IMG/VR virus record: IMGVR_UViG_3300042923_001771
Location: 1 to 64,000 of that record
Strand: one strand, 5' to 3'
DNA: 64,000 nt
Origin: a virus
Lineage: Duplodnaviria; Heunggongvirae; Uroviricota; Caudoviricetes
Below the pieces are notes generated by a model that searched no databases, was not told where the DNA came from, and was given only the letters and a program-made list of their open reading frames with translations. The position numbers and the translations under genes were made by a program. How positions within the stretch are numbered: the first letter of the stretch is position 1; each line of letters opens with the position of its first letter. Positions 10,812-22,459 of this stretch are shown in pieces.

Positions 10812-11657
10812 ATGTCTAAAGAATTAACACACAAGGATATTTGTCCATACTACGAAGAGAATTGCACAGATGTTGGGTGTGTATGTCCAAAATATTTAGC
10901 TTATGAAGCGGTAAATAAACCCGAAGAAGTATCTGCTGAAATTAAAGAGATGGGTATTGACCCTGATAAAGATTCACTTTCTCTTATGATGGAAATGCAA
11001 AAATTGTTTGCAGCTAAATTTCATAAAGTTGATGATTTTACTAAAGATGAAGTTGATAAGTGGACACTTGCTTATGATGGTTGCATTACAGATGAAATCA
11101 CTGAGGTGCATGAACATCTTTCCGTTTTTCCAGGTGTAGAATCAAAAGACAATAATTTGGAACTTCAAAAAGAATTCATTGATATTTGGCACTTCTTGAT
11201 GGATCAATTTATTGTAGCAGATTTAGATACTAACAAATTAGTTGAAACCTATATTAATGAGTCCAATCTTACTGGACTAACCACTGAATGGGCTATTCAA
11301 TCTGTCGGTGGTGGAGATGCATTGAGAATGGTATTCTTGAATGAATACAATCTTCTTAATAAACGTCTCAATGGAGAACTTTCTACATTGAATAAGGATG
11401 ATAGAGACTTACAAATTCTTGTTCACTCCAATTTAGTACTTGCTGGTATGAGGAAGGTAAGACAACAAATTTCTTGGAAACACTGGAAAAAACCTGCTAC
11501 TTCTATTGACTATCCTAAATTGCATTCTGCTTTGACATATTCATTCAAAGTGCTAGTACAGTGTTTCATTCTTACTGGTTTGGATGCAGAAGAGCTAACT
11601 CGCATCTATATTTCTAAAAACCTAGAAAATCGTTTCCGTCAAAAATTCGGATACTAA
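10812..11657 (+). CDS. hypothetical protein; possibly all-alpha NTP pyrophosphohydrolase-like (weak)
   Basis: EITEVHEH and DIWHFLMD loosely resemble the MazG/dimeric-dUTPase ExxE..ExxD pattern. Confidence 0.55.
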   Translation: MSKELTHKDICPYYEENCTDVGCVCPKYLAYEAVNKPEEVSAEIKEMGIDPDKDSLSLMMEMQKLFAAKFHKVDDFTKDEVDKWTLAYDGCITDEITEVHEHLSVFPGVESKDNNLELQKEFIDIWHFLMDQFIVADLDTNKLVETYINESNLTGLTTEWAIQSVGGGDALRMVFLNEYNLLNKRLNGELSTLNKDDRDLQILVHSNLVLAGMRKVRQQISWKHWKKPATSIDYPKLHSALTYSFKVLVQCFILTGLDAEELTRIYISKNLENRFRQKFGY

Positions 11658-11670
11658 GTAATAATTAATT

Positions 11671-11704
11671 AAGCCACTCAGGGGTAAACTGAGTGGCTTT
11701 TTGT
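11671..11704 (+). terminator. rho-independent terminator
   Basis: aagccactcagg-ggtaaa-ctgagtggctt followed by a T-run. Confidence 0.65.
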
Positions 11705-11776: not shown

Positions 11777-13933
11777 ATGTCTAAGAAAATTAAGTTTACA
11801 GGTTTTAATTCTGGAATTGCTGGAGAAAAGTTTCATTTATCTTTTCAAGAATACAATAAAGACACTAAATTTTTATCATTGGTTGAAAATCAAGAAATCA
11901 CTATCTCAAATAATGACTATGATTTATTACCTCAAAATTTATTTGATAGTGGAACTTTAGTTTTAATTGAAGATAATAATTTACTACTAGTAAATAATCA
12001 AGTAGGAGTTTTATCGAGCGTTATTCTAAGCGTAGACTCGTTTCCAAGGCTAAACGGTGAGACAGAAGATTCACCAAGAATTCAAAGAGCAATCAATAGT
12101 TTACCTTCAACGGGCGGAGAAATCATTTTCCCTCCAAAATCCTCATCCTATGTACTCAATACTACTTTCTCAATTAACGGAAAAGCAAATATTAAATTGA
12201 GAGCAATTAAAGGTTCTAAATTCATTATTGGTGTTGGACTTAATTTTTTCAATGTAATTGGTAGTAATCACATTACATTAGAAGGATTTGAATTTGAAGA
12301 AAGTGGATATACTAACAATGTGTTTTTTCAAGATGTTACGTTAAATCATGCTACTTTACTTCAACCAAATACAAACACAAATATTGATGTTACAATTACT
12401 AGTCCAACGTTTACTATTGCTAAGAATGGTACTACACCGGATCAAGTAGAACAATATTATAATGTTACTATAGCATTGGATAGTAGTAAAGAATATACTA
12501 TACAAACATATGATGGATTTGCTGTTGGAGAAAATATTAATAGAATAAAAATCCGTCAATATACAGATGCTACAACATACAAAGAAGCTTCTTTGGATTT
12601 ACAAGTACTTGATGCAGCGAGTCCTGGATATTATAGATGGTTAACAAATTATATTCCAATTGGAATCGTAAAGATTGAACTACTTTTCGCTTATACAAAA
12701 GCCTTTAATTCTGACAATAACAATGCGATTTATGATTTATCTAAGATAAGATTATTTCAAGCTAGCAGACCCCTTCCAAACAATGTAGATTCTTTTCATA
12801 TAAGTGTTCAAAATTCAAAACAAATTACTTTTCAAGATATGAAGTTTAAAGGTATGACGGTTGATGTTATTAAAGTAATTTCAGCTAGTGAAGATATCAA
12901 AATGAGAGATCTTGAATTTATCAATTGTTTTAATGACAATATTGGAGTAGGTTATATAACAAATGGAATATTTGAGAATATTTATTCTAAGAACGAATTT
13001 GTAAGTAATAGTGCAGCAGTGGTTGCATATACAAAATCAACCAATCGTGTTTTTGGTGGAAGTGTAGCTTCTAAAAACATTACAATAAAAAATATATACG
13101 GAAAAGGTATGTATTTTGGCGCCGAATTATGGTTTGTTGATAATATGTTAATAGATAATGTTACTTTTGAAAACGTTCCATGGGGATTATCGATTTGTAA
13201 TAATACAACTGGAAAAATTCAAAACGCAACATTTAGATTGAGTGATAATTGGAAGTTTGCTATTGAACTTGCTACAGGAGTTAAAGTTGATGTTGATAAT
13301 GTTAGAGTTACTGGCCGTTCTATAATGGGTTTTGTGTTTTCTTTAACATCTAATACAGCTGGAAAAGTAAACATTTCAAATGTTGTTGTTGATTCTTGTT
13401 TTTGTATTGCTCAATATACTGATAATAGCATATTTTTTCAAAACATTGAAGTTAAAGAATTGATAGGTATAGGGTTCTTTGGATTGCAGGGCGGAGATTA
13501 TTCTAATGCTACGCTATCTGTTGAAGATTCAAAAATTACTTTTTCTAATACATTGAAAATTTGCAATCCAGCTTACGCTTCTGCTTTTATAAGAACTAAT
13601 GATGGTACAAAATATATGAATCGTATTATTTTAAAAAATTGCGAGTTCTTAGGAAAACCAAATCAACATGCTTTCGGTATACGTACAAGCGAATTATTGA
13701 TGGATAACGTTATAACTGATAATGCAACATTTTACTTTTCACAAATTCGTTTAAAAGATGTAAATGATAAAATGTCAATTATTAGAAATAGTCAAATGTA
13801 CAAGTGGAATTTTGCTGAATTCCCAACCACAGCAACAACTTCAAAATTAGTTTTTAGAGATAGTAAAATTAAATCAACTACATTACCAAGTGGTACTCAT
13901 GTAATTACAGATAATATTGTAACTATGATTTAA
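11777..13933 (+). CDS. receptor-binding protein / tail fibre paralog 1 (conserved N-terminal anchor, beta-helix-like body)
   Basis: N-terminus MSKKIKFTGFNSG..ITISNNDYDLLPQNLF is shared with the 16794 and 18555 genes. The body is Asn/Gly/Thr-rich and repetitive. Confidence 0.7.
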   Translation: MSKKIKFTGFNSGIAGEKFHLSFQEYNKDTKFLSLVENQEITISNNDYDLLPQNLFDSGTLVLIEDNNLLLVNNQVGVLSSVILSVDSFPRLNGETEDSPRIQRAINSLPSTGGEIIFPPKSSSYVLNTTFSINGKANIKLRAIKGSKFIIGVGLNFFNVIGSNHITLEGFEFEESGYTNNVFFQDVTLNHATLLQPNTNTNIDVTITSPTFTIAKNGTTPDQVEQYYNVTIALDSSKEYTIQTYDGFAVGENINRIKIRQYTDATTYKEASLDLQVLDAASPGYYRWLTNYIPIGIVKIELLFAYTKAFNSDNNNAIYDLSKIRLFQASRPLPNNVDSFHISVQNSKQITFQDMKFKGMTVDVIKVISASEDIKMRDLEFINCFNDNIGVGYITNGIFENIYSKNEFVSNSAAVVAYTKSTNRVFGGSVASKNITIKNIYGKGMYFGAELWFVDNMLIDNVTFENVPWGLSICNNTTGKIQNATFRLSDNWKFAIELATGVKVDVDNVRVTGRSIMGFVFSLTSNTAGKVNISNVVVDSCFCIAQYTDNSIFFQNIEVKELIGIGFFGLQGGDYSNATLSVEDSKITFSNTLKICNPAYASAFIRTNDGTKYMNRIILKNCEFLGKPNQHAFGIRTSELLMDNVITDNATFYFSQIRLKDVNDKMSIIRNSQMYKWNFAEFPTTATTSKLVFRDSKIKSTTLPSGTHVITDNIVTMI

Positions 13934-13951
13934 TTTTTAAAGACTATATGT

Positions 13952-13985
13952 AAAAAAGGAACCTAGAAAATAGGTTCCTTTTTAT
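13952..13985 (+). terminator. rho-independent terminator
   Basis: aggaacct-agaaaa-taggttcct followed by a T-run. Confidence 0.65.
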
Positions 13986-14085
13986 ATTTTAAAAAGAAAA
14001 ATATGCAGGCTGTCAAGGTTAAAATATGATGATTTAATATTTAAAATATAATAAATGAATTTATAAAAATATTGAGGTGAAATAA

Positions 14086-14253
14086 TTGATTTGGTGGATA
14101 ATAGGTTGCATTATTTATCTTGCAGTAGGTTTTTGTTTTCCTAAGCCTTGTGATTGGAGAATAATTACAAAAACATTAGTGCATATATTTTGGTTACCAC
14201 TTTTAATTTTTGTTTTAATTGTTATTGTATTTGGTGGCGCTAAAATAATTTAA
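14086..14253 (+). CDS. small hydrophobic membrane protein (55 aa)
   Basis: Not in the ORF track. TTG after gaggtg; two predicted TM helices. Confidence 0.4.
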   Translation: MIWWIIGCIIYLAVGFCFPKPCDWRIITKTLVHIFWLPLLIFVLIVIVFGGAKII

Positions 14254-14266
14254 TGAGGTGAATGAA

Positions 14267-14509
14267 ATGGTTATGTATTATGGTATTTATGTTACTCCTG
14301 AAGATTACGTAGCTCACGTAAAAGTTGCGGATTATGATGAACATACATTTGATGAAACTAGATTTTTCAAAGATAAATATGGAGATAAATTAAAGTTTTA
14401 TTCTGAAGAGGAAGCTTCTGAATGGTTAAATGAAAATGTTAAGTTTGATAAAATCTATCCAGGTGATAGAGTGTTAACACTCAAAAATCAACAAGAATAT
14501 ATGAGGTGA
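14267..14509 (+). CDS. hypothetical protein
   Basis: ATG 6 nt after gaggtg. Confidence 0.5.
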   Translation: MVMYYGIYVTPEDYVAHVKVADYDEHTFDETRFFKDKYGDKLKFYSEEEASEWLNENVKFDKIYPGDRVLTLKNQQEYMR

Positions 14510-14510
14510 T

Positions 14511-14996
14511 ATGATGGAACCATGGGAAAAAGCTATAGAAGAAGTATCTCAGTATTCAGAAAATTATTCAGTTATTGATACGTATATAAAACCTTTATGT
14601 GAGCTTCTTACAGAAAATGGATTCATAACCTTGCATTCTTGTTCAGCACATATAAAAGCTTCAACAAGTAATATAAGACGTTCACTTTATTCTGGTAAGT
14701 GGATTATTGAAAAAGATAGATTTAAGAAAACAACAATATCAAAACGGTGGTACATCATGTTTGTACCACGATGGCCAATTGAAGAAATTGAAAATATCGT
14801 TAAAAGTATTAATGATAAATATGACTATAAAATAGAACTTGAACAAACTAATGACTTTGAAGACCTTACAAATCGTTGGGTAATAGATGAGTTTATGGAG
14901 TTTAATTTCAACGATAAGCAACTACAAGAACGTCATAAAAATATATATATAGAGTTTAAAGATCACTTTGAATTAAAAGCTAAAGAGGTGATTTAA
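14511..14996 (+). CDS. hypothetical protein
   Basis: 161 aa ORF, tightly coupled to its neighbours. Confidence 0.55.
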   Translation: MMEPWEKAIEEVSQYSENYSVIDTYIKPLCELLTENGFITLHSCSAHIKASTSNIRRSLYSGKWIIEKDRFKKTTISKRWYIMFVPRWPIEEIENIVKSINDKYDYKIELEQTNDFEDLTNRWVIDEFMEFNFNDKQLQERHKNIYIEFKDHFELKAKEVI

Positions 14997-14997
14997 A

Positions 14998-15219
14998 TTG
15001 AGTTACAGCCCACTCAAATATAAAATTGAAGAAGCTAAAGCTAGACATGAACATGAAAAATTTAAATTAGCAAAAGAGCATACAGACGAAATGAAGAAAT
15101 TACTTGCTCAATGTACTCATAAATATGAAGATGGTTCTTCTGCTACACATTATTGGGAAGGTCATCATAGAATGGATTATGGAAGAGAATGTAATATTTG
15201 TGGAAGTAAAAATATTTAA
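14998..15219 (+). CDS. hypothetical protein with C-terminal CxxC
   Basis: TTG start after gaggtg. Confidence 0.45.
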   Translation: MSYSPLKYKIEEAKARHEHEKFKLAKEHTDEMKKLLAQCTHKYEDGSSATHYWEGHHRMDYGRECNICGSKNI

Positions 15220-15237
15220 TAGAAAAGAGGCAAAATA

Positions 15238-16281
15238 ATGTTAAAAGAAAGTTATCAGGTATTAGACAGTATTCGCTTGCCACATGGACTTTATTTAGCT
15301 AGTCCTTCTGAGCATTATTCTTTTGTGTGGATTCGTGATACCGTTTACATTTCTCTTCCTTATCTCAACAAAAATGATGGTTGGTATGAAAAAGCATATC
15401 ATCGCATGTTAGACTTCTTCATTCAATATGAATGGAAAAAAGACATCATCATTAACGAAAAACGACCAAGAGCTGAATTTGAATATCTTCATGCTCGGCT
15501 GTCCGCTGACACAGTGGAGGAGATTCATACACAAGAATGGGGTCACGCTCAACATGACATGATTGGCGCTTTCTTGTTTGGAATTGGAGAAGGTTTAAAG
15601 CATGGAAAGAAAATATTGAGAGACGAAACAGATAGACGAATTATACAAAAGCTTGTTCATTATTTGAGTGCAGTAGAATATTGGCATGATCCAGATAATG
15701 GTATGTGGGAAGAATATCGCGAAGTTCATCTTTCCTCAGTTGGAGCTTGTGTTGCTGGTCTAAAAAATGTTCAAAACATTGTATATGTCCCTACTGATTT
15801 AATTGATAATGGACTAAAAACTTGTCTGAGTTTATTTCCACGCGAAAGTAATGATAAACCAGTAGATTTAGCACAATTAAGTCTTGTTTATCCATATAAA
15901 TTATTTGGACTAATGGGAGAAAGTATTGTCAATAATGTTGAGAAATATCTTCTCAGAGAACGCGGAGTAATTCGTTATGAAGGTGATAGTTATTATTCAA
16001 CTTTAGAAGCAGAATACGGTCGTGGTCGGTCAAGACATTTTTACGCAGATACTGAGGCTGAGTGGTGTTTTGGCTTGCCGTGGTTGGCTTTATGTCATAT
16101 TGATCTTGGTAATTATGAAAAAGCTAGAGAGTATGTAAAGAGAACTGAAGAAGTAATGGTTTCACCAGGAAATCTTCCAGAGTTGTATTACTCTAAAACA
16201 AATAAGCCAAATCCAAATACTCCTCTAGGTTGGTCAGTTGCAATGTATATTTTAGCTAAAGAAGCAATAAATGAAGTATAA
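15238..16281 (+). CDS. glycoside hydrolase, GH15-like (glucoamylase-type alpha/alpha barrel)
   Basis: WIRDTVY, GMWEE, SSVGACVAGL and EGDSYY motifs are typical of the GH15/glucoamylase catalytic domain. Confidence 0.6.
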   Translation: MLKESYQVLDSIRLPHGLYLASPSEHYSFVWIRDTVYISLPYLNKNDGWYEKAYHRMLDFFIQYEWKKDIIINEKRPRAEFEYLHARLSADTVEEIHTQEWGHAQHDMIGAFLFGIGEGLKHGKKILRDETDRRIIQKLVHYLSAVEYWHDPDNGMWEEYREVHLSSVGACVAGLKNVQNIVYVPTDLIDNGLKTCLSLFPRESNDKPVDLAQLSLVYPYKLFGLMGESIVNNVEKYLLRERGVIRYEGDSYYSTLEAEYGRGRSRHFYADTEAEWCFGLPWLALCHIDLGNYEKAREYVKRTEEVMVSPGNLPELYYSKTNKPNPNTPLGWSVAMYILAKEAINEV

Positions 16282-16311
16282 AAAAAGACCCTCGTATGAG
16301 GGTCTTTTTTA
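16281..16311. terminator. bidirectional rho-independent terminator
   Basis: agaccctc-gtat-gagggtct with A-run/T-run flanks, between convergent genes. Confidence 0.7.
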
Positions 16312-16626
16312 TTGAATATTTAATGCTTTAATTTCAGGAATGATTCCCATAGTTAGTGCAGTCATTTCGTCAGGTCTAAGTTCTTGTGAACGTTGATTTT
16401 GCCACATTGAACAAATTGAAAGTGGATGTTCTCCTTGATAAATAGCTGTATCGTTTGAATATCCTTCAAGCGCTGTTTGAAGCTCTATCTGAAGTTCTTG
16501 TGGTACATTTAGTAAAGCACTATAAATATTAGCCCAGTGAATATCGTTTTCTGCAGTGTAACTAGGAGCAAGAGTATAGTCACCAGCAATACGAAACATT
16601 TTACTTAATCTTTTCAAACCAAACAC
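16309..16626 (-). CDS. hypothetical protein
   Basis: 105 aa minus-strand ORF ending at the bidirectional terminator. Confidence 0.5.
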   Translation of the reverse strand: MFGLKRLSKMFRIAGDYTLAPSYTAENDIHWANIYSALLNVPQELQIELQTALEGYSNDTAIYQGEHPLSICSMWQNQRSQELRPDEMTALTMGIIPEIKALNIQ

Positions 16627-16717
16627 CTCTTACTTTTCTATTTTTTATACAGAAAGAAATACTCTGAGTGTAAACATTCTATAACACATTCTTCAATTTT
16701 GGTAGAAATCTAAATGA

Positions 16718-16746
16718 TTATAAAATTCTAACAATTATTGTATAAT
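16718..16746 (+). promoter_or_regulatory. promoter candidate with perfect -10 TATAAT
   Basis: tTGTATAAT at 16738-16746; weak -35 ttataa. Confidence 0.3.
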
Positions 16747-16793
16747 ATTTTTGTAATCGAATTGTGTAAATCAATCTAATCGAGGTGATTAAG

Positions 16794-18533
16794 ATGTCTA
16801 AAAAAATTAAGTTTGTTGGTTTTAAATCTGATGTTAGTAATGAATCTTTAAAATTATCTTTATATAAGTATAATGAAGATGTTAAATTTTTAAATTTAAA
16901 AGAAGGTCAAGAAATCACTATTTCTAATAATGATTTCGATTCTTTACCTCAAAATTTATTTACTGATGGTACTTTAATTTTAGTAGAAGATGGAGATTTA
17001 GCTTCCGTTAAACAAGATATTAATGGTCGCGGGATCAATGTTAAAAGCTTTGGAGCTAAAGGAAATGGAACCGATGATGATACATCAGCAATTCAAGCAG
17101 CTGTTTTAGCAGCGGTAGGGAGTAGATTAATTATACCAAATGGTAGTTATAGATTTAAAAATATTTCTATTCCAAGCGATAGTTATATCCAAATTGAATC
17201 AAATGCTAAAATTATAGCTCCAGTTGGAACAACTAATACCGATAGTTTTTTCTTAATTACTGGAACTGTAGGTACAAATAAATCTAGAGTTAAAATTGAA
17301 GGAGGAGTATTTGATGGTGCTAACCTCATGTCTTGTGGGGTGAACATTGATTATGGAAGTGACATCTTAATACAAGATAGCAAATTTGTTAATATGATTA
17401 CTGGAGTTAATACAGCACCACAAGGTGTTGGATTAAGTATTAAGAACAGTAAAGACGTTAGAGTAAATGGAGTTTGGGTTGATACAGCTACGGTTGGTGT
17501 GTTGTCTTATAGGTGTGATAGAGGTATAATAGAAAATTGTACCCTTCTTAATACTTCTAGAGATGGTATTTTGTGCTACGACGGAACAAAAAATATAAAG
17601 ATTTCAAATAATCATGTTGATATATATTGCACTTCTGGAGAAACTGGCCGTGCTGGAATTCACATTTATGGTAGTTCTGATACTATTGTTACAGGAAATA
17701 CTGTACTAAATGGTCAATTTGACGCAGAAGGTATTCGTTTTAGAGATGCAAATAGATTTACTTGTGTTGGTAATTATGTAAAGACACCTGGTGCTTCAGC
17801 TATTGCAGTTGTCCGTATTGGTGATTTTGTTGGATTAGATGGTGGAGACGGAACCATTTCAGGCAACTTTATTCTAAATGCTGGTTTACACGGAATTACT
17901 GTTAGTTATGCACTAAATAAACCCGTAAGTATTACTGGTAACACAATCAAAAATACAATTACGACCAATCCATCCGATCCTGCTACAGCAATTCTTGTGG
18001 GTGCTAATTATTGTTCAATTATTGGCAACACAATTGACACTGCTCAAGGTGATGGTATTGACGTAAGCGGAACTTTTAATACAATTACTGGAAATACTAT
18101 TCGAAACGTTGGTACTGGAACTATTGGTGCGCGAGTTGGTATTTTCTTAACAGGCACTGATAATGTATGTACTGGTAACACTATCAACGATGATCAAGGT
18201 ACGCACACAATGATTAACGGTATTCGTCTCTTTTCAACAGCTACAGCTATTATCAAAAACAATAACATTAATGGTGCAACTAGTTCTGCTTATCGTTTAG
18301 ATGGTAAAATGATAGGTGAAAATAGTGGAAGCATTATCTTAGCAAATGGCGCAACTTCAGTATTAGTAACTCATGGTCTTCGTGATACACCAACTAATAT
18401 AATTATATCTCCAATGACAGACGGACTTGGCTCACCGTGGGTAACTAACATTACTGCTACAACTTTTACAATTAATGTAGCAGCTGCACCATCAAAAGGT
18501 TCAAACATTGGTTGGAGAGTATCAACACAATAA
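16794..18533 (+). CDS. receptor-binding protein paralog 2, pectate-lyase-like parallel beta-helix
   Basis: Shares the N-terminal anchor. Repeated GNTI.N/GNYV coils (ITGNTIKN, IIGNTIDT, ITGNTIRN, CTGNTIND). Confidence 0.75.
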   Translation: MSKKIKFVGFKSDVSNESLKLSLYKYNEDVKFLNLKEGQEITISNNDFDSLPQNLFTDGTLILVEDGDLASVKQDINGRGINVKSFGAKGNGTDDDTSAIQAAVLAAVGSRLIIPNGSYRFKNISIPSDSYIQIESNAKIIAPVGTTNTDSFFLITGTVGTNKSRVKIEGGVFDGANLMSCGVNIDYGSDILIQDSKFVNMITGVNTAPQGVGLSIKNSKDVRVNGVWVDTATVGVLSYRCDRGIIENCTLLNTSRDGILCYDGTKNIKISNNHVDIYCTSGETGRAGIHIYGSSDTIVTGNTVLNGQFDAEGIRFRDANRFTCVGNYVKTPGASAIAVVRIGDFVGLDGGDGTISGNFILNAGLHGITVSYALNKPVSITGNTIKNTITTNPSDPATAILVGANYCSIIGNTIDTAQGDGIDVSGTFNTITGNTIRNVGTGTIGARVGIFLTGTDNVCTGNTINDDQGTHTMINGIRLFSTATAIIKNNNINGATSSAYRLDGKMIGENSGSIILANGATSVLVTHGLRDTPTNIIISPMTDGLGSPWVTNITATTFTINVAAAPSKGSNIGWRVSTQ

Positions 18534-18554
18534 AATTTAATTGAGGTGGTTAAA

Positions 18555-20753
18555 ATGTCTAAAAAAATTAAGTTTGTTGGTTTTAAATCTGATGTTAATG
18601 GTGAATCATTAAAGTTATCCTTATATCAGTATAATGAAGATGTTAAATTTTTAAATTTAAAAGAGGGCGAAGAAATTACTATTTCAGATAGTGAATTTAA
18701 TTTATTACCTCAGAAGCTATTTACTAGCGGTAAATTAGTTTTAATTGAAGACGAAAATTTTAGTTCACTAAATGATGAAATTGATTTAGTAAATTTAAAA
18801 TTAGATGGAACAATTAATGTTAAAGAATTTGGTGCAAAAGCTGATTATTACGGCGCTAGAACTGATGATACACAGGCTTTTCGTGATGCTCTTTATTATG
18901 CAATTATGAATAAGAAGGTTTTAAGGATACCAAACGGAGAGTATTATATAACTGATAACATACTAACAGATGAAGCGCAAGCTGCATTGATTAGTAGGCT
19001 TTATGGAAGATTGGTAATTGAGGGAGACTCAGTAGCAAATACAATTATCATGTTTAGACCTACAAATGTAAATACACCGTTTATAGGAGTAAAAAAGACA
19101 TCCGAGGCTTATATATCTAATATTTTTATCGCCGGGGATGCGAATAAGAAAGGCATTGGTTTAGAACTTGGAGAATTTGTTGCAAATCCACTCAACTATG
19201 GTGAGATTGCAAGATCGGTTTTTAGAAGTATTCGTACCTATGGTTTGAATATTGGTATAGATCACAAATCGGGATGGTGCAATGACTTTTACAATTGTAT
19301 AACCAATAACTGCAACACAGGAACTCGTGTTGTAGGAAACATACTTAACTTTTACGGTCATGTATCTGAATTGAATAATATTGGTGTAGATATAGGTCTT
19401 GATGAAAGTACTGCCCAACATAGTTCTATAAATTTTTATGGCGCAACTGTTGAAGCAAATAACGGATTTGATGGAAATACACCGGGAATTGGATTTAAAG
19501 TTAGACAATGCACTGATTTAAACTTGTTCGGAATTTACATGGAGTTAAACAAATTGGCGCACATTCACGCAGGTACAGATGCTGGAGATAAGATTGAATC
19601 ATTAAATATCTACGGTGGAAGTTGGCATTACAATAATCCTCTTATCTTTGACAGAGTGGATAATTTGACCGTTAAAGGAACAGGAATGATGGGGATATAC
19701 TCCATTAAAGTTACAGAAAATGTAAAAGTTGCTGATATTCAGCCTATCTATCAAAATCATTTAAATACAGGTTCAGGGTCATTCGATTGGATTGAGGTTG
19801 TTGGAAAAAACACTCAATCAAATGTCCCTTGGTACCAAAATAATCTTTCAAAAATTAATATTCCAACACCCATTGTAGCCACGCCAGTGAATTTAGATAC
19901 AAATGGGTATCTTAAAATTCAAGGTTTAAAGAACGGCACATTATCTGAACACGCTGATGTAATAACTGGTACAAAGGCAATAAAATATACAGCTGCTGCT
20001 GGAGATACTTTTGCCGGCATTTATATGACGCTTCTTCCAGAGAAATTGCCTCCTTCTGACTTTTTATCCCTTAAACTAATTTCTTATCTGAGTTCTACGG
20101 CTACAGCCTTTAGAAGACAGATAATTGTTAGATATAAGGACTTGGGTGATGTTTTAAAAGGTTACACTACATTTGATCATAATTCTGCATATGACGTTGC
20201 TGTTTCAAAAATTATAGATAAGTATACACAGTACATTACTCCAATTAACTTGGATGTTGTTAAGAAACTACCTGATTTTGCTTCAATCTATGATATTCAA
20301 ATTAACATTCAAATTGTTACAACTCCGGCTGCAAACGGTACAGAATGGTTTGCGATTGACAGTTTGGAGATTTACCCGACGAAATATATCGCTAATAACT
20401 TTAATAACTTACCATTCCAGTCCTTGTATTCACCTTCAACAATTTCTTCTCCAGAAATTTTAAATATCGGTGATGGGACTGCGATAAAGAAACATATTGG
20501 TGCAGCAGTAACATTTGATGCTCCCAGTATTGCAGCAAACTCTTTAGTGGAAGTAACTGTTACAGTTACTGGTGTAGCTTTAGGAGATACTATCGTAGCA
20601 ACTCCTGGCACTAGTTTATCTGCTGAGGCGAGTTTAATTTGGTCAGCATATGTTAGTGCAGCTGATACAGTTAGAATTAGGTTGGCTAATATTTCTGGAT
20701 CTGCTATAGATCCAATAAATAGAACTTGGAGAATAGATGCTTGGAGACACTAA
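18555..20753 (+). CDS. receptor-binding protein paralog 3 (shared anchor, beta-helix, divergent C-terminal domain)
   Basis: Its N-terminal 60 aa are nearly identical to those of the 16794 gene; 733 aa. Confidence 0.75.
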   Translation: MSKKIKFVGFKSDVNGESLKLSLYQYNEDVKFLNLKEGEEITISDSEFNLLPQKLFTSGKLVLIEDENFSSLNDEIDLVNLKLDGTINVKEFGAKADYYGARTDDTQAFRDALYYAIMNKKVLRIPNGEYYITDNILTDEAQAALISRLYGRLVIEGDSVANTIIMFRPTNVNTPFIGVKKTSEAYISNIFIAGDANKKGIGLELGEFVANPLNYGEIARSVFRSIRTYGLNIGIDHKSGWCNDFYNCITNNCNTGTRVVGNILNFYGHVSELNNIGVDIGLDESTAQHSSINFYGATVEANNGFDGNTPGIGFKVRQCTDLNLFGIYMELNKLAHIHAGTDAGDKIESLNIYGGSWHYNNPLIFDRVDNLTVKGTGMMGIYSIKVTENVKVADIQPIYQNHLNTGSGSFDWIEVVGKNTQSNVPWYQNNLSKINIPTPIVATPVNLDTNGYLKIQGLKNGTLSEHADVITGTKAIKYTAAAGDTFAGIYMTLLPEKLPPSDFLSLKLISYLSSTATAFRRQIIVRYKDLGDVLKGYTTFDHNSAYDVAVSKIIDKYTQYITPINLDVVKKLPDFASIYDIQINIQIVTTPAANGTEWFAIDSLEIYPTKYIANNFNNLPFQSLYSPSTISSPEILNIGDGTAIKKHIGAAVTFDAPSIAANSLVEVTVTVTGVALGDTIVATPGTSLSAEASLIWSAYVSAADTVRIRLANISGSAIDPINRTWRIDAWRH

Positions 20754-20784
20754 TCAGTTAAGATGATTGATGTCTAAATAAATT

Positions 20785-20827
20785 AAAAAATCCCTAATCT
20801 TTGTAAAATAAGATTAGGGATTTTTTA
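20785..20827. terminator. bidirectional rho-independent terminator
   Basis: tccctaatct-ttgtaaaata-agattaggga with A/T-run flanks, between convergent operons. Confidence 0.7.
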
Positions 20828-20840
20828 ATTTGTAAATTAA

Positions 20841-21146
20841 TTATCCAAAATATCCAATTGTTATTGTTGCGTTTGTTAATTCAACATAAATTCCATTTTT
20901 AGCTCTTAATGGGATAGCAAATTGAGTAAATTTTGAAGATTCTCCAGCATTAATTGTAGCCTCAAAGATTATATCTCCTGTAGAATCTCCATCTTTTACA
21001 ACTATGTTTCCAACTCCACTGCCTATTAAATTAATAAAAGAAATAAAAGCTTCGTCCGCTGAAACAGACCCACTTGCAATTATTTTTTTACTCATGCAAA
21101 AATTTGTCATGCTCATACAATCACCTCTGTTTTTTTGTAAGTTCAT
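20841..21146 (-). CDS. hypothetical protein
   Basis: 101 aa minus-strand ORF. Confidence 0.5.
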   Translation of the reverse strand: MNLQKNRGDCMSMTNFCMSKKIIASGSVSADEAFISFINLIGSGVGNIVVKDGDSTGDIIFEATINAGESSKFTQFAIPLRAKNGIYVELTNATITIGYFG

Positions 21147-21160
21147 ATATAAATATGTTT

Positions 21161-21679
21161 TTATGAATATTTTATTTTTATTGTCTCTTTTGTTAGAGGG
21201 TTAAATCTTATAATTTTTCTTTCTAGTTTCTCTGCATATTTTACGCAGTTTCTTGTTCCACCTAAACTACCATTCCAAACTGCTAATATAAGTTGTGACC
21301 GATCCACCATCCACTCATTTCTTACTTGGAGTAAATAATTACTAGTAAACTTGCCTTTATGAACGTAGTGTATTTGATCTGCTTTATTATTTATTTCTTC
21401 TAAATGTTGTTGAGCTGATAATGGCCAATTGTCACCAAAATCATAATAAGGAATTGCCATTAAAAGTTTTACATTTTTGTTTTGTTCTTTTTTTCTAAGA
21501 ACTATGTCTGCTGCCCACTGATCAATTCCTTGAGCTGCTCCAGAAATAAATGTAACATCATCCTTTAGATTAATCAATTTGTCAATGTATTCTTCAAGCC
21601 AATCAGATACGTGTTGTGGACAAGTTACATTCCAACCACCAAAATCTTTTGGTCTGTGTCCAGTAAAACAAACATTCAT
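21161..21679 (-). CDS. YpsA-like SLOG-family protein (DUF1273)
   Basis: N-terminal VCFTGHRP plus the ISGAAQGIDQWAA Rossmann-like core. Confidence 0.55.
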   Translation of the reverse strand: MNVCFTGHRPKDFGGWNVTCPQHVSDWLEEYIDKLINLKDDVTFISGAAQGIDQWAADIVLRKKEQNKNVKLLMAIPYYDFGDNWPLSAQQHLEEINNKADQIHYVHKGKFTSNYLLQVRNEWMVDRSQLILAVWNGSLGGTRNCVKYAEKLERKIIRFNPLTKETIKIKYS

Positions 21680-22063: not shown

Positions 22064-22459
22064 TTAATTAAGCGATAAAGCTTTTTTAGTTTTACCAATC
22101 GCTTTCTTTATTTTGGAGCCGCAATAAATTCTTTCATCATAGGTCTCAATTCTTTCTACTTCATCAACAATTGAATAAAATACTTCAGTCGCTTCAGGTC
22201 CATTTGGTTTAGTTACCCAATCTCTATCGAAGTTCGCGATAACAGACAACCAAAATACATCTTCAGTTGTGCTATCTTCAACCTCTCCGTTGCGAACAAC
22301 CAATTTAGTAATACGACCTTTATCTAGACCGTTTTTACTCTTTTCATCATCAACTTTTCCGTACCATTCATATAAGTGATTGTTGCAAGTTGCAGTACCT
22401 GAAATCCAATAACTATCATCTTCAACTTTATGAATAGTAACTTCAACTGGTTTTGTCAT
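22064..22459 (-). CDS. hypothetical protein
   Basis: First gene of the minus-strand operon; RBS gaggaggactagg. Confidence 0.55.
   Translation of the reverse strand: MTKPVEVTIHKVEDDSYWISGTATCNNHLYEWYGKVDDEKSKNGLDKGRITKLVVRNGEVEDSTTEDVFWLSVIANFDRDWVTKPNGPEATEVFYSIVDEVERIETYDERIYCGSKIKKAIGKTKKALSLN

What the first reader, a model, noticed from the sequence alone, without database searches (positions are those of the whole stretch)
11777..20753. Three paralogous receptor-binding proteins share one N-terminal anchor but carry different beta-helix bodies
Genes at 11777, 16794 and 18555 start with near-identical about 60 aa N-termini (MSKKIKF[VT]GF[KN]S..L.LS...YN.D.KFL.L.E.QEITISNND[FY]D.LPQNLF..GTL.L[IV]ED). 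They then diverge into different Asn/Gly/Thr-rich parallel beta-helix bodies, and the 16794 gene has clear GNTI.N pectate-lyase-like coils. A conserved virion-attachment module with swapped enzymatic or receptor-binding bodies is a classic host-range diversification signal. Three different polysaccharide specificities in one phage is notable. A GH15-like hydrolase gene sits between them.
Basis: partly seen in the sequence, partly recalled or inferred. Interest (0 to 1): 0.6.

Follow-up and report, generated by a model that had tools for sequence, protein, structure and literature searches.

The report
Shared N-terminal module on three beta-helix proteins
A relative of the giant Bacillus phage G carries three different sugar-cutting, spike-like proteins that all begin with the same small, previously undescribed 66-residue module, probably a lineage-specific plug that mounts interchangeable host-recognition enzymes on the virus particle, although attachment to the particle has not been shown.

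Summary
Three + strand genes (11777-13933, 16794-18533, 18555-20753) share a 66 aa N-terminus at 62-79% identity (tblastn E 1e-24 to 1e-32). The similarity ends there, and the bodies are unrelated apart from a beta-helix cap. There are exactly three copies in the window.

The window is part of a 191.6 kb contig from a relative of Bacillus phage G. The genes lie in a 9.5 kb accessory island that phage G lacks.

The module has no Pfam, PHROG, PDB or fold match. Among 1.84 billion representative proteins it occurs in only five others, at least four of them from phage-G-like contigs, each time at the extreme N-terminus. Counting the three window proteins, eight different C-terminal parts follow it.

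The g11777 body also occurs at 46-51% identity in other Bacillota phage contigs behind a different short N-terminal peptide. The g18555 body occurs in a bacterial polysaccharide locus with no anchor. Modular exchange at the junction is therefore shown.

Virion attachment and three distinct polysaccharide specificities are inferred, not shown. Only g16794 is firmly a beta-helix, the genes lie outside any structural module, and phage G has only a weak 73 aa stand-alone homologue (gp164).

Verdict: a new variant (novel anchor family, Gram-positive megaphage clade) of the well-known modular multi-tailspike design. Moderate interest.

The parts
10812..11657 (+). Left border of the island: NTP pyrophosphohydrolase/dUTPase_2-like gene, homologue of phage G gp58.
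   Evidence: Pfam dUTPase_2 and phrog_173. 58% aa identity to phage G gp58. The only DNA-level match to phage G is here.
11671..11699 (+). Terminator-like hairpin (11 bp stem, T-run) separating the upstream gene from g11777.
11777..11974 (+). Anchor module copy 1 (residues 1-66 of g11777).
   Evidence: Alignments. HMM 119 bits.
11975..13933 (+). g11777 body (652 aa): a novel family, probably beta-helix with a pectate-lyase-type cap. Homologous from residue ~78 to the anchor-less proteins P0009 and P0010.
   Evidence: No Pfam, PHROG or PDB hit. 51% and 46% identity to P0009 and P0010. P0010 carries PF12708. The family profile weakly matches beta-helix caps 4mxn and 3jur. The AF2 single-sequence model is all-beta but of low confidence.
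13953..13983 (+). Terminator-like hairpin after g11777, making g11777 a monocistronic unit.
14258..15219 (+). Three small island ORFs (83, 161 and 73 aa) of unknown function, with no counterpart in the phage G interval.
15238..16281 (+). GH15-like (alpha/alpha)6-barrel protein (347 aa) without the anchor module.
   Evidence: PF00723 E 4.6e-13, profile positions 21-188 of 427. The best PDB relatives are the GH15-like domains of phosphorylase kinase alpha/beta subunits. No PHROG hit.
16309..16626 (-). Small opposite-strand ORF (102-105 aa) of unknown function inside the island.
16794..16991 (+). Anchor module copy 2 (residues 1-66 of g16794).
   Evidence: AF2 model with an 8-sequence alignment: pLDDT ~70-84, five strands plus two short helices.
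16992..18533 (+). g16794 body: right-handed parallel beta-helix (pectate-lyase-like) with GNT[IV]xN coils, plus a ~80 aa C-terminal domain shared with an L013 protein.
   Evidence: Pfam Beta_helix 2e-21, NosD 5e-13, PF12708. PHROG tail spike families 2234 and 7458. PDB cap matches to iota-carrageenase and mannuronan C5-epimerases. C-terminal match to L013_18823, E 5e-5.
18555..18752 (+). Anchor module copy 3 (residues 1-66 of g18555). The gene starts 21 nt after the g16794 stop, so it is probably co-transcribed with g16794.
18753..20753 (+). g18555 body: pectate-lyase-type cap and a central part homologous to the bacterial protein P0012 (residues 93-639), then a distinct ~95 aa C-terminal domain.
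   Evidence: PF12708 29.3 bits. 36% identity to P0012 over 565 aa. The C-terminal 605-731 matches an uncultured-phage hypothetical protein.
20782..20829 (.). Long symmetric hairpin (20 bp stem) between the convergent genes g18555 (+) and ORF 20841-21146 (-): a likely bidirectional terminator ending the g16794-g18555 unit.
21161..21679 (-). Right border of the island: YpsA/SLOG-family gene, homologue of phage G gp66.
   Evidence: Pfam YpsA 4.7e-21. 53% identity to phage G gp66; the adjacent 22064-22459 ORF is 54% identical to gp67.

Best explanation
The three genes encode modular tailspike- or tail-fibre-like proteins of a phage-G-like giant Bacillota phage.

**Proposed mechanism**
- Each protein has a 66-residue N-terminal domain (five beta-strands and two short helices), a short variable linker, a pectate-lyase-type cap, and a different carbohydrate-binding or carbohydrate-cleaving body.
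- The N-terminal domain is a docking adaptor found in phage-G-like contigs. It fixes whichever body is fused to it onto one conserved site, or a set of paralogous sites, on the particle.
- New host-surface polysaccharide specificities can then be gained by recombination at the domain boundary.
- The genes can sit anywhere in the genome as accessory cargo; here they lie in a 9.5 kb island together with a GH15-like enzyme.

**Shown**
- The module and its boundary.
- Purifying selection on the module.
- Its occurrence in phage-G-like contigs only (lineage unconfirmed for L003).
- Exchange of bodies and of N-terminal modules.
- The beta-helix nature of g16794.

**Inferred**
- Trimer formation.
- Virion attachment and the docking partner.
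- Enzymatic activity and distinct specificities of the three bodies.
For: 1. **A discrete module.** Protein identity is 62-79% over residues 1-66 and then drops abruptly. DNA similarity runs from -30 to +200 nt only. The AF2 model folds residues 1-67 as one compact domain followed by a disordered linker.
2. **Selection on the protein.** dN/dS is 0.22-0.49 between the paralogues.
3. **Always N-terminal, on many bodies.** An exhaustive HMMER search of 1.84e9 representatives finds only six proteins. All have the module at residue 1 (invariant MSK[KI]IKF start) in front of different C-terminal parts. With g11777 and g16794, that makes eight proteins and eight different bodies.
4. **Clade restriction.** L001 has a major head protein 91% identical to phage G gp27. 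L005 has a gp165 homologue at 84%. L009 and L024 are syntenic with the window (RNR 85-92%), on contigs up to 476 kb. The window helicase is 64% identical to G gp73. No bacterial protein carries the module. This fits a phage-encoded partner better than a host ligand.
5. **Anchors track the genome.** Anchors are more alike within a genome (79% for g16794/g18555 over residues 1-66; 83% in L001 over 64 residues) than between genomes (42-67%). This is expected if they co-evolve with a genome-specific partner, though g11777 does not follow the pattern.
6. **Reciprocal exchange.** The g11777 body occurs at 51% and 46% identity behind a different N-terminus. That N-terminus is itself shared by seven paralogous large proteins in L013 and by two in L017. 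The g18555 body occurs in a bacterial polysaccharide-synthesis locus with no anchor.
7. **The cap is typical of virion proteins.** The cap that follows the anchor matches hundreds of phage proteins annotated as tailspikes, phi29-type pre-neck appendages, neck passage structures and tail fibres. g16794 matches PHROG tail spike families.
8. **Structural genes nearby in other genomes.** Anchor genes lie close to the major head protein and lysis genes in L001, a PAAR gene in L003, and weak tail-fibre or virion-protein matches in L005.
Against: - No experimental or proteomic evidence places any of these proteins in a virion.
- The anchor has no sequence or fold similarity to any known particle-binding domain.
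- In the window the genes lie among nucleotide-metabolism and replication genes, not tail genes.
- Phage G, the only cultured relative, has no anchor-bearing large protein. It has only a weak 73 aa stand-alone homologue, gp164.
- Short anchor proteins exist (P0006 121 aa, P0003 182 aa), so the domain is not exclusively a handle for enzymes.
- Body homologues work without it: P0010 follows a lysis cassette and P0012 is bacterial. That pattern is compatible with free enzymes.
- The higher within-genome anchor similarity could reflect recent duplication or gene conversion instead of co-evolution. g11777's anchor is no closer to its window paralogues (62-65%) than to those of L001 (58-59%).
- Beta-helix folds of g11777 and g18555 are not confirmed. 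The AF2 model of g11777 had pLDDT 36.6.
Confidence: 0.6

Rival explanations
1. The three proteins are soluble, non-virion polysaccharide-degrading enzymes released at lysis, like free phage depolymerases. They would strip capsule, biofilm or wall polysaccharide around infected cells. The shared N-terminal domain would then serve another common purpose, such as oligomerisation, folding, stability or regulation.
For: The genes lie in an accessory island among metabolic genes, beside an anchor-less GH15-like enzyme. Body homologues occur without the anchor: P0010 directly after an XhlA/amidase/holin lysis cassette and P0012 in a bacterial chromosome. Phage G lacks the genes entirely. The anchor resembles no known particle-binding domain.
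Against: A generic folding or oligomerisation domain would not be expected only in phage-G-like contigs, always at residue 1 with an invariant MSK[KI]IKF start, on eight unrelated bodies that include two short non-enzymatic tails. The anchor-less homologues P0009 and P0010 themselves carry another N-terminal peptide shared by their paralogues, which is the pattern of docking peptides. Cap-bearing phage proteins are overwhelmingly annotated as virion spikes or fibres.
Confidence: 0.2
2. The N-terminal domain is a small carbohydrate- or cell-wall-binding module (CBM-like). It would target different enzymes to the host surface instead of docking them on the phage.
For: It is a small beta-rich domain with weak fold resemblance to cupin or jelly-roll-like and other beta domains. 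Carbohydrate-active enzymes often carry appended binding modules. Stand-alone versions exist (gp164, P0006).
Confidence: 0.08
3. The shared N-terminus is only a remnant of recent gene duplication or gene conversion, possibly together with shared translation-initiation signals, and has no specific function of its own.
For: Similarity includes the RBS. g16794 and g18555 are adjacent and the most similar pair (79%). The within-genome pairs g16794/g18555 and L001a/b are the closest.
Against: dN/dS is below 0.5 with dS of 0.5-0.95, so the copies are old and constrained. The module is conserved at 42-67% across different genomes and on different bodies. It has a sharp boundary that coincides with a predicted domain end. 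The upstream motif is not conserved beyond chance.
Confidence: 0.05
4. The domain targets the proteins to another part of the giant virion (capsid surface or head fibres, neck, or the long wavy tail fibres), or into the capsid as packaged proteins, and not to the baseplate.
For: In L001 the anchor genes lie 3 kb from the major head and decoration genes. The stand-alone 73 aa gp164 is the size of a decoration or adaptor protein. The motif L[IV]ED at the domain end superficially resembles LxE-type prohead-protease sites; this is my own knowledge and was not tested.
Against: Nothing points specifically to the capsid. Beta-helix depolymerases inside a capsid would have no obvious role. There are no proteomic data.
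Confidence: 0.07

Closest known systems
Branched multi-tailspike complexes of Ackermannviridae (CBA120 TSP1-4) and Alcyoneusvirus jumbo phages (RaK2/phiK64-1, 9-11 tail-fibre proteins); also Klebsiella jumbo phage phiKp24 (PMC10253068, PMC11414711, PMC9700779)
   Same: Several paralogous beta-helix proteins in one large phage. Each has a conserved small N-terminal domain and a different enzymatic body. The N-terminal domains are conserved within the phage group while the bodies are exchanged horizontally.
   Different: - Those N-terminal domains (D1 heads, T4 gp10-like XD domains, anchor domain AD) have known folds, and virion location is demonstrated.
- The 66 aa module here matches none of them by sequence or fold.
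- Those genes are clustered in the tail module. Here they lie in an accessory island among metabolic genes, and at different positions in related genomes.
- The host is Gram-positive (Bacillales-type phage).
- No branching (XD-like) platform protein was identified.
Primary/secondary RBP systems of Klebsiella podophages (KP32, K11, KP34): a conserved docking peptide of RBP2 binds the branching domain of RBP1 (PMC13352976, PMC12692247)
   Same: A short conserved N-terminal element is sufficient to mount interchangeable depolymerase bodies. This is a plug-and-play architecture with exchange at the junction. The MSLFGKDF-type N-termini seen on the g11777-body homologues resemble such short docking peptides in size.
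   Different: There is no sequence relationship. The module here is a folded ~66 aa domain, not a peptide. The partner is unknown.
phi29-family pre-neck appendage gp12 and other Gram-positive phage beta-helix spikes (peptidase G2 / pectate-lyase-3 cap)
   Same: The cap and first coils of the bodies are similar to these virion-borne Bacillus phage spikes. The N-terminal ~70-90 residues serve as the attachment region in gp12 (my own knowledge).
   Different: Only the ~70-190 aa cap is detectably similar (29-41% identity). No peptidase G2 or intramolecular chaperone domain was found. The anchor is unrelated.
Bacillus phage G gp164 (73 aa, unannotated)
   Same: It is the best viral fold match of the anchor model (Foldseek probability 1.00, TM-score 0.67 on the target, 23% identity). 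It is also the only extra HMM hit among 3,645 ORFs (17.1-17.2 bits, E 7.6e-4, against a best score of 9.5 bits for 2,000 shuffles). It lies next to gp165, whose 84%-identical homologue is the called gene immediately upstream (about 460 nt) of the anchor protein P0003 in L005.
   Different: It is a stand-alone protein with no body. The similarity is weak (hhalign probability 36%). Its function and location are unknown, and it is not mentioned in the phage G multi-omics paper.

Membership tests
Right-handed parallel beta-helix / pectate-lyase-like superfamily (Pfam Beta_helix PF13229, NosD PF05048, PF12708 cap) | Significant match to the beta-helix repeat models above the curated cut-off | tested here: met
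   g16794 only: PF13229 76.6 bits (cut-off 25.9), PF05048 49.3 bits (23.6), PF12708 27.5 bits (27).
Right-handed parallel beta-helix / pectate-lyase-like superfamily | The same for g18555 | tested here: inconclusive
   Only the PF12708 cap matches (residues 87-169, 29.3 bits against 27). The central part has no model match but is homologous to P0012, which also carries PF12708. No structure model was made.
Right-handed parallel beta-helix / pectate-lyase-like superfamily | The same for g11777 | tested here: inconclusive
   No Pfam, PHROG or PDB hit for the protein itself, even at E<=1. Homologue P0010 has PF12708. The family profile hits beta-helix caps 4mxn (3.6e-4) and 3jur (1.8e-3). The AF2 model is all-beta with regular short strands but has mean pLDDT 36.6.
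Right-handed parallel beta-helix / pectate-lyase-like superfamily | Catalytic acidic residues in a substrate groove, and depolymerase activity | not testable with these tools
   No confident 3D models of the bodies; this needs structures and enzyme assays.
[quoted passage not shown] | N-terminal module conserved among paralogues and related phages while the distal part varies (modular exchange at the junction) | tested here: met
[quoted passage not shown] | N-terminal domain homologous to a known anchor (T4 gp10-like XD, CBA120 D1/AD, P22 head-binding, T7 gp17 N-terminus, endosialidase N-terminal extension) | tested here: not met
[quoted passage not shown] | Physical presence in the virion, attached to tail or baseplate, as a homotrimer | not testable with these tools
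   No cultured phage carries the module. The phage G proteomics paper does not mention gp164.
[quoted passage not shown] | Gene located in or next to the tail/baseplate module | tested here: not met
   The window neighbours are an NTP pyrophosphohydrolase, GH15, YpsA/SLOG, CoaE, clamp-loader-like protein, helicase and RNR. In other genomes structural genes are nearby, and gene scattering is common in jumbo phages, so this criterion is weak.
Glycoside hydrolase family 15 (the gene at 15238-16281) | Match to PF00723 above the cut-off | tested here: met
   49.3 bits against a cut-off of 22, but covering only profile positions 21-188 of 427. The nearest solved relatives are the GH15-like domains of phosphorylase kinase (E 3e-10). 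Catalytic Glu residues were not examined.
Leucine-rich repeat proteins (considered because of PDB profile hits) | Tandem array of LxxLxLxxN repeats forming a solenoid | tested here: not met
   There is only one LRR-like motif (...ITISNNDFDSLPQNLF...). No single PDB stretch passes threshold on its own. The AF2 model is a compact beta domain.

The most novel reading that the evidence does not exclude
The 66-residue module is a universal plug of the phage G clade of giant Bacillota phages. Any protein that carries it, encoded anywhere in the genome, would be mounted on one conserved socket of the particle. Relatives would then differ in a freely exchangeable set of enzymes and fibres. Body-less versions (phage G gp164, the 121 aa P0006) would cap or regulate the socket. 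This would be a new, self-contained docking system for Gram-positive megaphages, and a handle for re-targeting them.
Probability: 0.35. Interest if true: 0.55.

Novelty: new variant of a known kind. Interest (0 to 1): 0.42.

Why it matters
Host recognition by the largest cultivated-type phages (the phage G clade, up to about 0.5 Mb) is essentially uncharacterised, and almost all knowledge of multi-tailspike architecture comes from Gram-negative hosts.

If the 66 aa module is the docking handle, it gives three things:
- a sequence signature for finding the receptor-binding repertoire of G-like megaphages in metagenomes, where Pfam and PHROGs see nothing;
- a defined junction (about residues 66-78) for engineering new specificities;
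- bait to identify the unknown socket protein on the particle.

The bodies are also new subfamilies of carbohydrate-active beta-helix proteins, probably aimed at Bacillales surface polysaccharides.

If the proteins turn out to be soluble, the module would be a new accessory domain of phage-encoded depolymerases. That would be less far-reaching.

Tried and rejected
**Searches for the anchor that found nothing**
- tblastn of the anchor against 50,697 phage records.
- Word-seeded search of 5.8e9 proteins.
- First pattern scans of genome and metagenome collections. A broader pattern later found only known members plus a 476 kb contig.

**Attempts that gave poor or uninformative results**
- AF2 single-sequence model of g11777: too poor to use (pLDDT 36.6).
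- AFDB50 fold search: library unavailable.
- The shared upstream motif TTGTATAWT...TGTAAT as a phage promoter: not enriched in the window (4 found against 4.7-5.1 expected). The promoter scan as a whole was at background (72 against 64).
- Weak HMM hits P0007 and P0008 (repeat proteins sharing 'DVKFVDLTEG..ITVSDN'): only faint, unrelated Pfam matches, so treated as motif coincidence.
- The LRR reading of the PDB profile hits: rejected, because there is a single motif and no stretch is significant by itself.

**Searches for relatives or literature that led nowhere**
- Relatives of the island's left border gene in IMG/VR, to compare island content: none found.
- The protein adjacent to P0005 in L003, as a lineage marker: no phage match, so L003's lineage is unconfirmed.
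- gp165, the conserved neighbour of gp164 and P0003, as a candidate partner: no family match and no homologue in the window.
- Literature on phage G gp164: nothing.
- tblastn of an L013 N-terminus (MSLFGKDL...): only the cap matched; the peptide itself did not.

Full report

Yes. Three + strand ORFs begin at ATG 11777, 16794 and 18555. NCBI's own gene calls on the source contig use the same starts, giving products of 718, 579 and 732 aa. The GTG nine bases upstream that the ORF lister reports lies inside the ribosome-binding site.

The first 66 residues are 65%, 62% and 79% identical pairwise without gaps. tblastn E-values are 1e-24 to 1e-32, and no fourth copy is found in the 64 kb window by tblastn or by a profile HMM over all ORFs. 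At the DNA level the similarity starts about 30 nt before the ATG and stops about 200 nt into the gene.

Beyond residue ~66 the proteins are not significantly similar. The exception is a ~70-residue pectate-lyase-type cap shared by g16794 and g18555.

The GH15-like gene between g11777 and g16794 is also there (PF00723, E 4.6e-13, partial coverage).

**2. What are the bodies?**

- **g16794** is a firm right-handed beta-helix protein: Pfam Beta_helix 2e-21 and NosD 5e-13, the PF12708 cap, and PHROG tail spike families. The GNT[IV]xN coils are visible in the sequence. Its nearest solved relatives match only the cap: iota-carrageenase and mannuronan C5-epimerases.
- **g18555** matches only the cap model. 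Residues 93-639 are 36% identical to P0012. P0012 has no anchor and lies on a 62% GC bacterial contig next to Wzz and sugar epimerase/dehydratase genes. g18555's last ~95 residues form a different C-terminal domain.
- **g11777** has no Pfam, PHROG or PDB match of its own. Its homologue P0010 carries the cap model. A three-sequence family profile weakly hits beta-helix caps in the PDB. A single-sequence AlphaFold model was all-beta but too poor to interpret.

So 'three beta-helix bodies' is established for one, likely for the second, and plausible for the third. Enzymatic activity and three distinct specificities are inferences.

**3. Where does the window come from?**

g18555 is identical to a protein on NCBI contig JAQZBO010000001.1 (GCA_029238855.1, 191.6 kb), which is labelled 'MAG: Bacillales bacterium'.

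The window's genes show it is a large phage related to Bacillus phage G:
- The helicase is 64% identical to phage G gp73.
- The flanking genes are 53-58% identical to gp58, gp66 and gp67.
- The rest of the window encodes ribonucleotide reductase, CTP synthase, a tubulin-like protein, thymidylate synthase and similar functions.

In phage G the gp58-gp66 interval is 3.7 kb of small genes. In the window it is 9.5 kb, and none of its ORFs has a counterpart in that G interval. The three genes, the GH15-like gene and four small ORFs therefore form an accessory island.

Terminator-like hairpins bracket g11777 and follow g18555. This gives one monocistronic unit and one two-gene unit.

**4. What is the N-terminal module?**

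It has no match in any of the following:
- Pfam or PHROGs;
- 50,697 phage genomes;
- PDB sequences, where only cumulative weak hits of one LRR-like motif appear.

An exhaustive HMMER search of 1.84 billion representative proteins found only six true members:
- g18555 itself;
- P0002 and P0004, two adjacent genes in L001;
- P0005, a 576 aa NosD-type protein (L003);
- P0003, a 182 aa protein (L005);
- P0006, a 121 aa protein (L009, L024).

In every member the module is at residue 1, with an invariant MSK[KI]IKF start. Together with g11777 and g16794 there are eight proteins with eight different C-terminal parts.

At least four of the five contigs that carry it, counting the window's, are phage-G-like:
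- L001: major head protein 91% identical to gp27.
- L005: gp165 homologue at 84% identity.
- L009 and L024: syntenic with the window, RNR 85-92% identical, on a contig of 476 kb.
- L003 could not be assigned.

The anchor genes sit at a different genomic position in each genome.

Between the window paralogues dN/dS is 0.22-0.49, with dS of 0.5-0.95. The copies are therefore old and the protein is under constraint.

An AlphaFold model built on the eight-sequence alignment folds residues 1-67 into a compact domain of five strands and two short helices (pLDDT ~70-84), followed by a disordered linker. It has no convincing structural neighbour:
- Foldseek against the PDB: best E 0.31.
- No solved tailspike N-terminal domain appears among the listed hits.

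The best viral match is phage G gp164, an unannotated 73 aa protein (probability 1.00, TM-score 0.67 on the target). The anchor HMM independently picks gp164 as the only extra hit among 3,645 ORFs (17.1-17.2 bits against a best 9.5 for 2,000 shuffles). gp164 lies next to gp165, and in L005 the gp165 homologue is the called gene immediately upstream (about 460 nt) of the anchor protein P0003. I treat gp164 as a probable distant, body-less relative.

**5. Is there cassette exchange at the boundary?**

Yes, in both directions.

The g11777 body, from residue ~78 onward, is 51% identical to P0009 and 46% identical to P0010, and both lack the module. P0009 is one of seven large proteins on a 169 kb contig that all begin MSLFGKDFxIxKxTDxDER and continue into different bodies. 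P0010 and its neighbour, in an SPbeta-like tail and lysis region, share M[ST]DKEKSLF[GS]EDF.

One body family is thus found behind two unrelated N-terminal elements, and each element is shared by the paralogues of its own genome.

The C-terminal ~80 residues of g16794 recur on an L013 protein, and g18555 and P0012 differ in their C-terminal domains. The proteins are therefore three-part mosaics.

**6. Most likely mechanism**

The pattern matches the behaviour of particle-binding domains of tailspikes and tail fibres in Ackermannviridae, Alcyoneusvirus and Klebsiella podophages (PMC10253068, PMC11414711, PMC13352976):
- a strictly N-terminal, folded module found only in phage-G-like contigs;
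- fused through a short linker to interchangeable cap-plus-body units;
- more alike within a genome (79% for g16794/g18555; 83% for the L001 pair) than between genomes (42-67%), although g11777 does not follow this.

The cap that follows the module is the one found on hundreds of annotated virion spikes, including phi29-type pre-neck appendages.

My best explanation, at confidence 0.6, is that the module docks three different carbohydrate-directed proteins onto a conserved site of the G-like particle. Virion attachment, trimerisation, the identity of the socket, and enzymatic specificity are all inferred.

**7. Rivals**

- **Soluble depolymerases (0.2).** Support: the metabolic neighbourhood, the adjacent anchor-less GH15-like gene, the anchor-less body homologues (one directly after a lysis cassette, one bacterial), and the absence of these genes from phage G.
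- **A CBM-like host-binding domain (0.08).** This is unlikely, because the module is absent from all bacterial proteins and is fixed in position.
- **A functionless duplication remnant (0.05).** This conflicts with the selection data and the cross-genome conservation.
- **Docking elsewhere on the virion, such as capsid or neck (0.07).** This cannot be excluded.

**8. Comparison with known systems, and novelty**

The design principle is well known: a conserved N-terminal adaptor carrying swappable depolymerase bodies, with several per phage. Three such proteins in one phage is not remarkable by itself.

What is new:
- the adaptor is an undescribed sequence and fold family;
- it is so far seen only in phage-G-like contigs from the giant Bacillota phage clade;
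- its genes are scattered in accessory islands, not in a tail module;
- body-less versions exist, including a probable one in phage G itself.

I rate it a new variant of a known kind, with interest 0.42.

Noticed in passing
L001:1-16000 (IMGVR_UViG_3300042923_001459): About 19 paralogous small ORFs (84-135 aa) with a CPxC...NGCY zinc-ribbon-like start and a conserved 'YWKENDRYLxKIM' end lie on both sides of the anchor-gene pair (phrog_4661/13559, function unknown). Phage G has a comparable array of small genes (gp28-48) downstream of its major head gene.
   Followed up: partly
L013:424-14289 and 18823-20730 (JGI Ga0395901_0000051, 169 kb): Seven large proteins (589-867 aa) all begin MSLFGKDFxIxKxTDxDER and continue into different bodies, at least three of which carry the pectate-lyase-type cap (PF12708). 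This is a second, shorter shared N-terminal module, possibly a docking peptide, in another large Bacillota phage contig. One of the seven carries the g11777-type body.
   Followed up: partly
L017:10001-13483 (ENA ERZ27258666 NODE_141): Two adjacent large proteins starting M[ST]DKEKSLF[GS]EDF lie directly after the XhlA/amidase/holin lysis cassette of an SPbeta-like element (YomG/YomF tail genes). This is an unusual position for spike-like proteins.
   Followed up: no
window:47745-48872: Tubulin/FtsZ-family GTPase gene (Pfam Tubulin 3e-15, Tubulin_2 1e-6) in this phage-G-like genome, set among nucleotide-metabolism genes.
   Followed up: no
window:1-64000 (source contig JAQZBO010000001.1, GCA_029238855.1): The public record labels the contig's proteins 'MAG: Bacillales bacterium', but gene content and 53-64% protein identity to phage G show that it is a fragment of a phage-G-like giant phage.
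   Followed up: partly
L005:14546-20461 (JGI Ga0065720_1018829, 156 kb): Downstream of the short anchor protein P0003 lies a cluster of NUDIX/NrtR-like, NAPRTase, nucleotidyltransferase and NAD synthase genes plus an Apyc1-like anti-Pycsar gene. It looks like an NAD-salvage and counter-defence block.
   Followed up: no
L003:6925-8394 and 14219-14608 (Logan SRR26078606_39124): A GH26+PA14 glycoside hydrolase gene lies 1.6 kb upstream of the anchor-bearing protein P0005, and a PAAR-motif gene lies 2.5 kb downstream. This is a second case, after GH15 in the window, of an anchor-less glycoside hydrolase near an anchor gene.
   Followed up: no
L024:6001-6366 (RCUH01000011.1, 476 kb contig): The 121 aa anchor-only protein P0006 lies between the RNR small subunit and thymidylate synthase genes of a 476 kb contig syntenic with the window. 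This is probably a near-complete megaphage genome related to phage G. The window has no gene at the equivalent spot.
   Followed up: partly
L020:8001-9836 (JGI Ga0207789_1000076): The closest relative of the g18555 body (P0012) is a lone gene on a 62% GC bacterial contig, between a Wzz/sugar-epimerase cluster and a PqqD/ABC-transporter cluster. This suggests a cellular origin for that body.
   Followed up: partly
L019:5259-5798 (phage G gp165) and L005:9001-9540: gp165, an unannotated 179 aa protein next to gp164, is 84% identical between phage G and the L005 phage. That is far more conserved than its neighbours (42-47%). It has no Pfam or PHROG match.
   Followed up: partly
window:20782-20829: An unusually long, perfectly symmetric 20 bp-stem hairpin (ATTAAAAAATCCCTAATC...GATTAGGGATTTTTTAAT) lies between the convergent genes g18555 and ORF 20841-21146. 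It is probably a bidirectional terminator.
   Followed up: no
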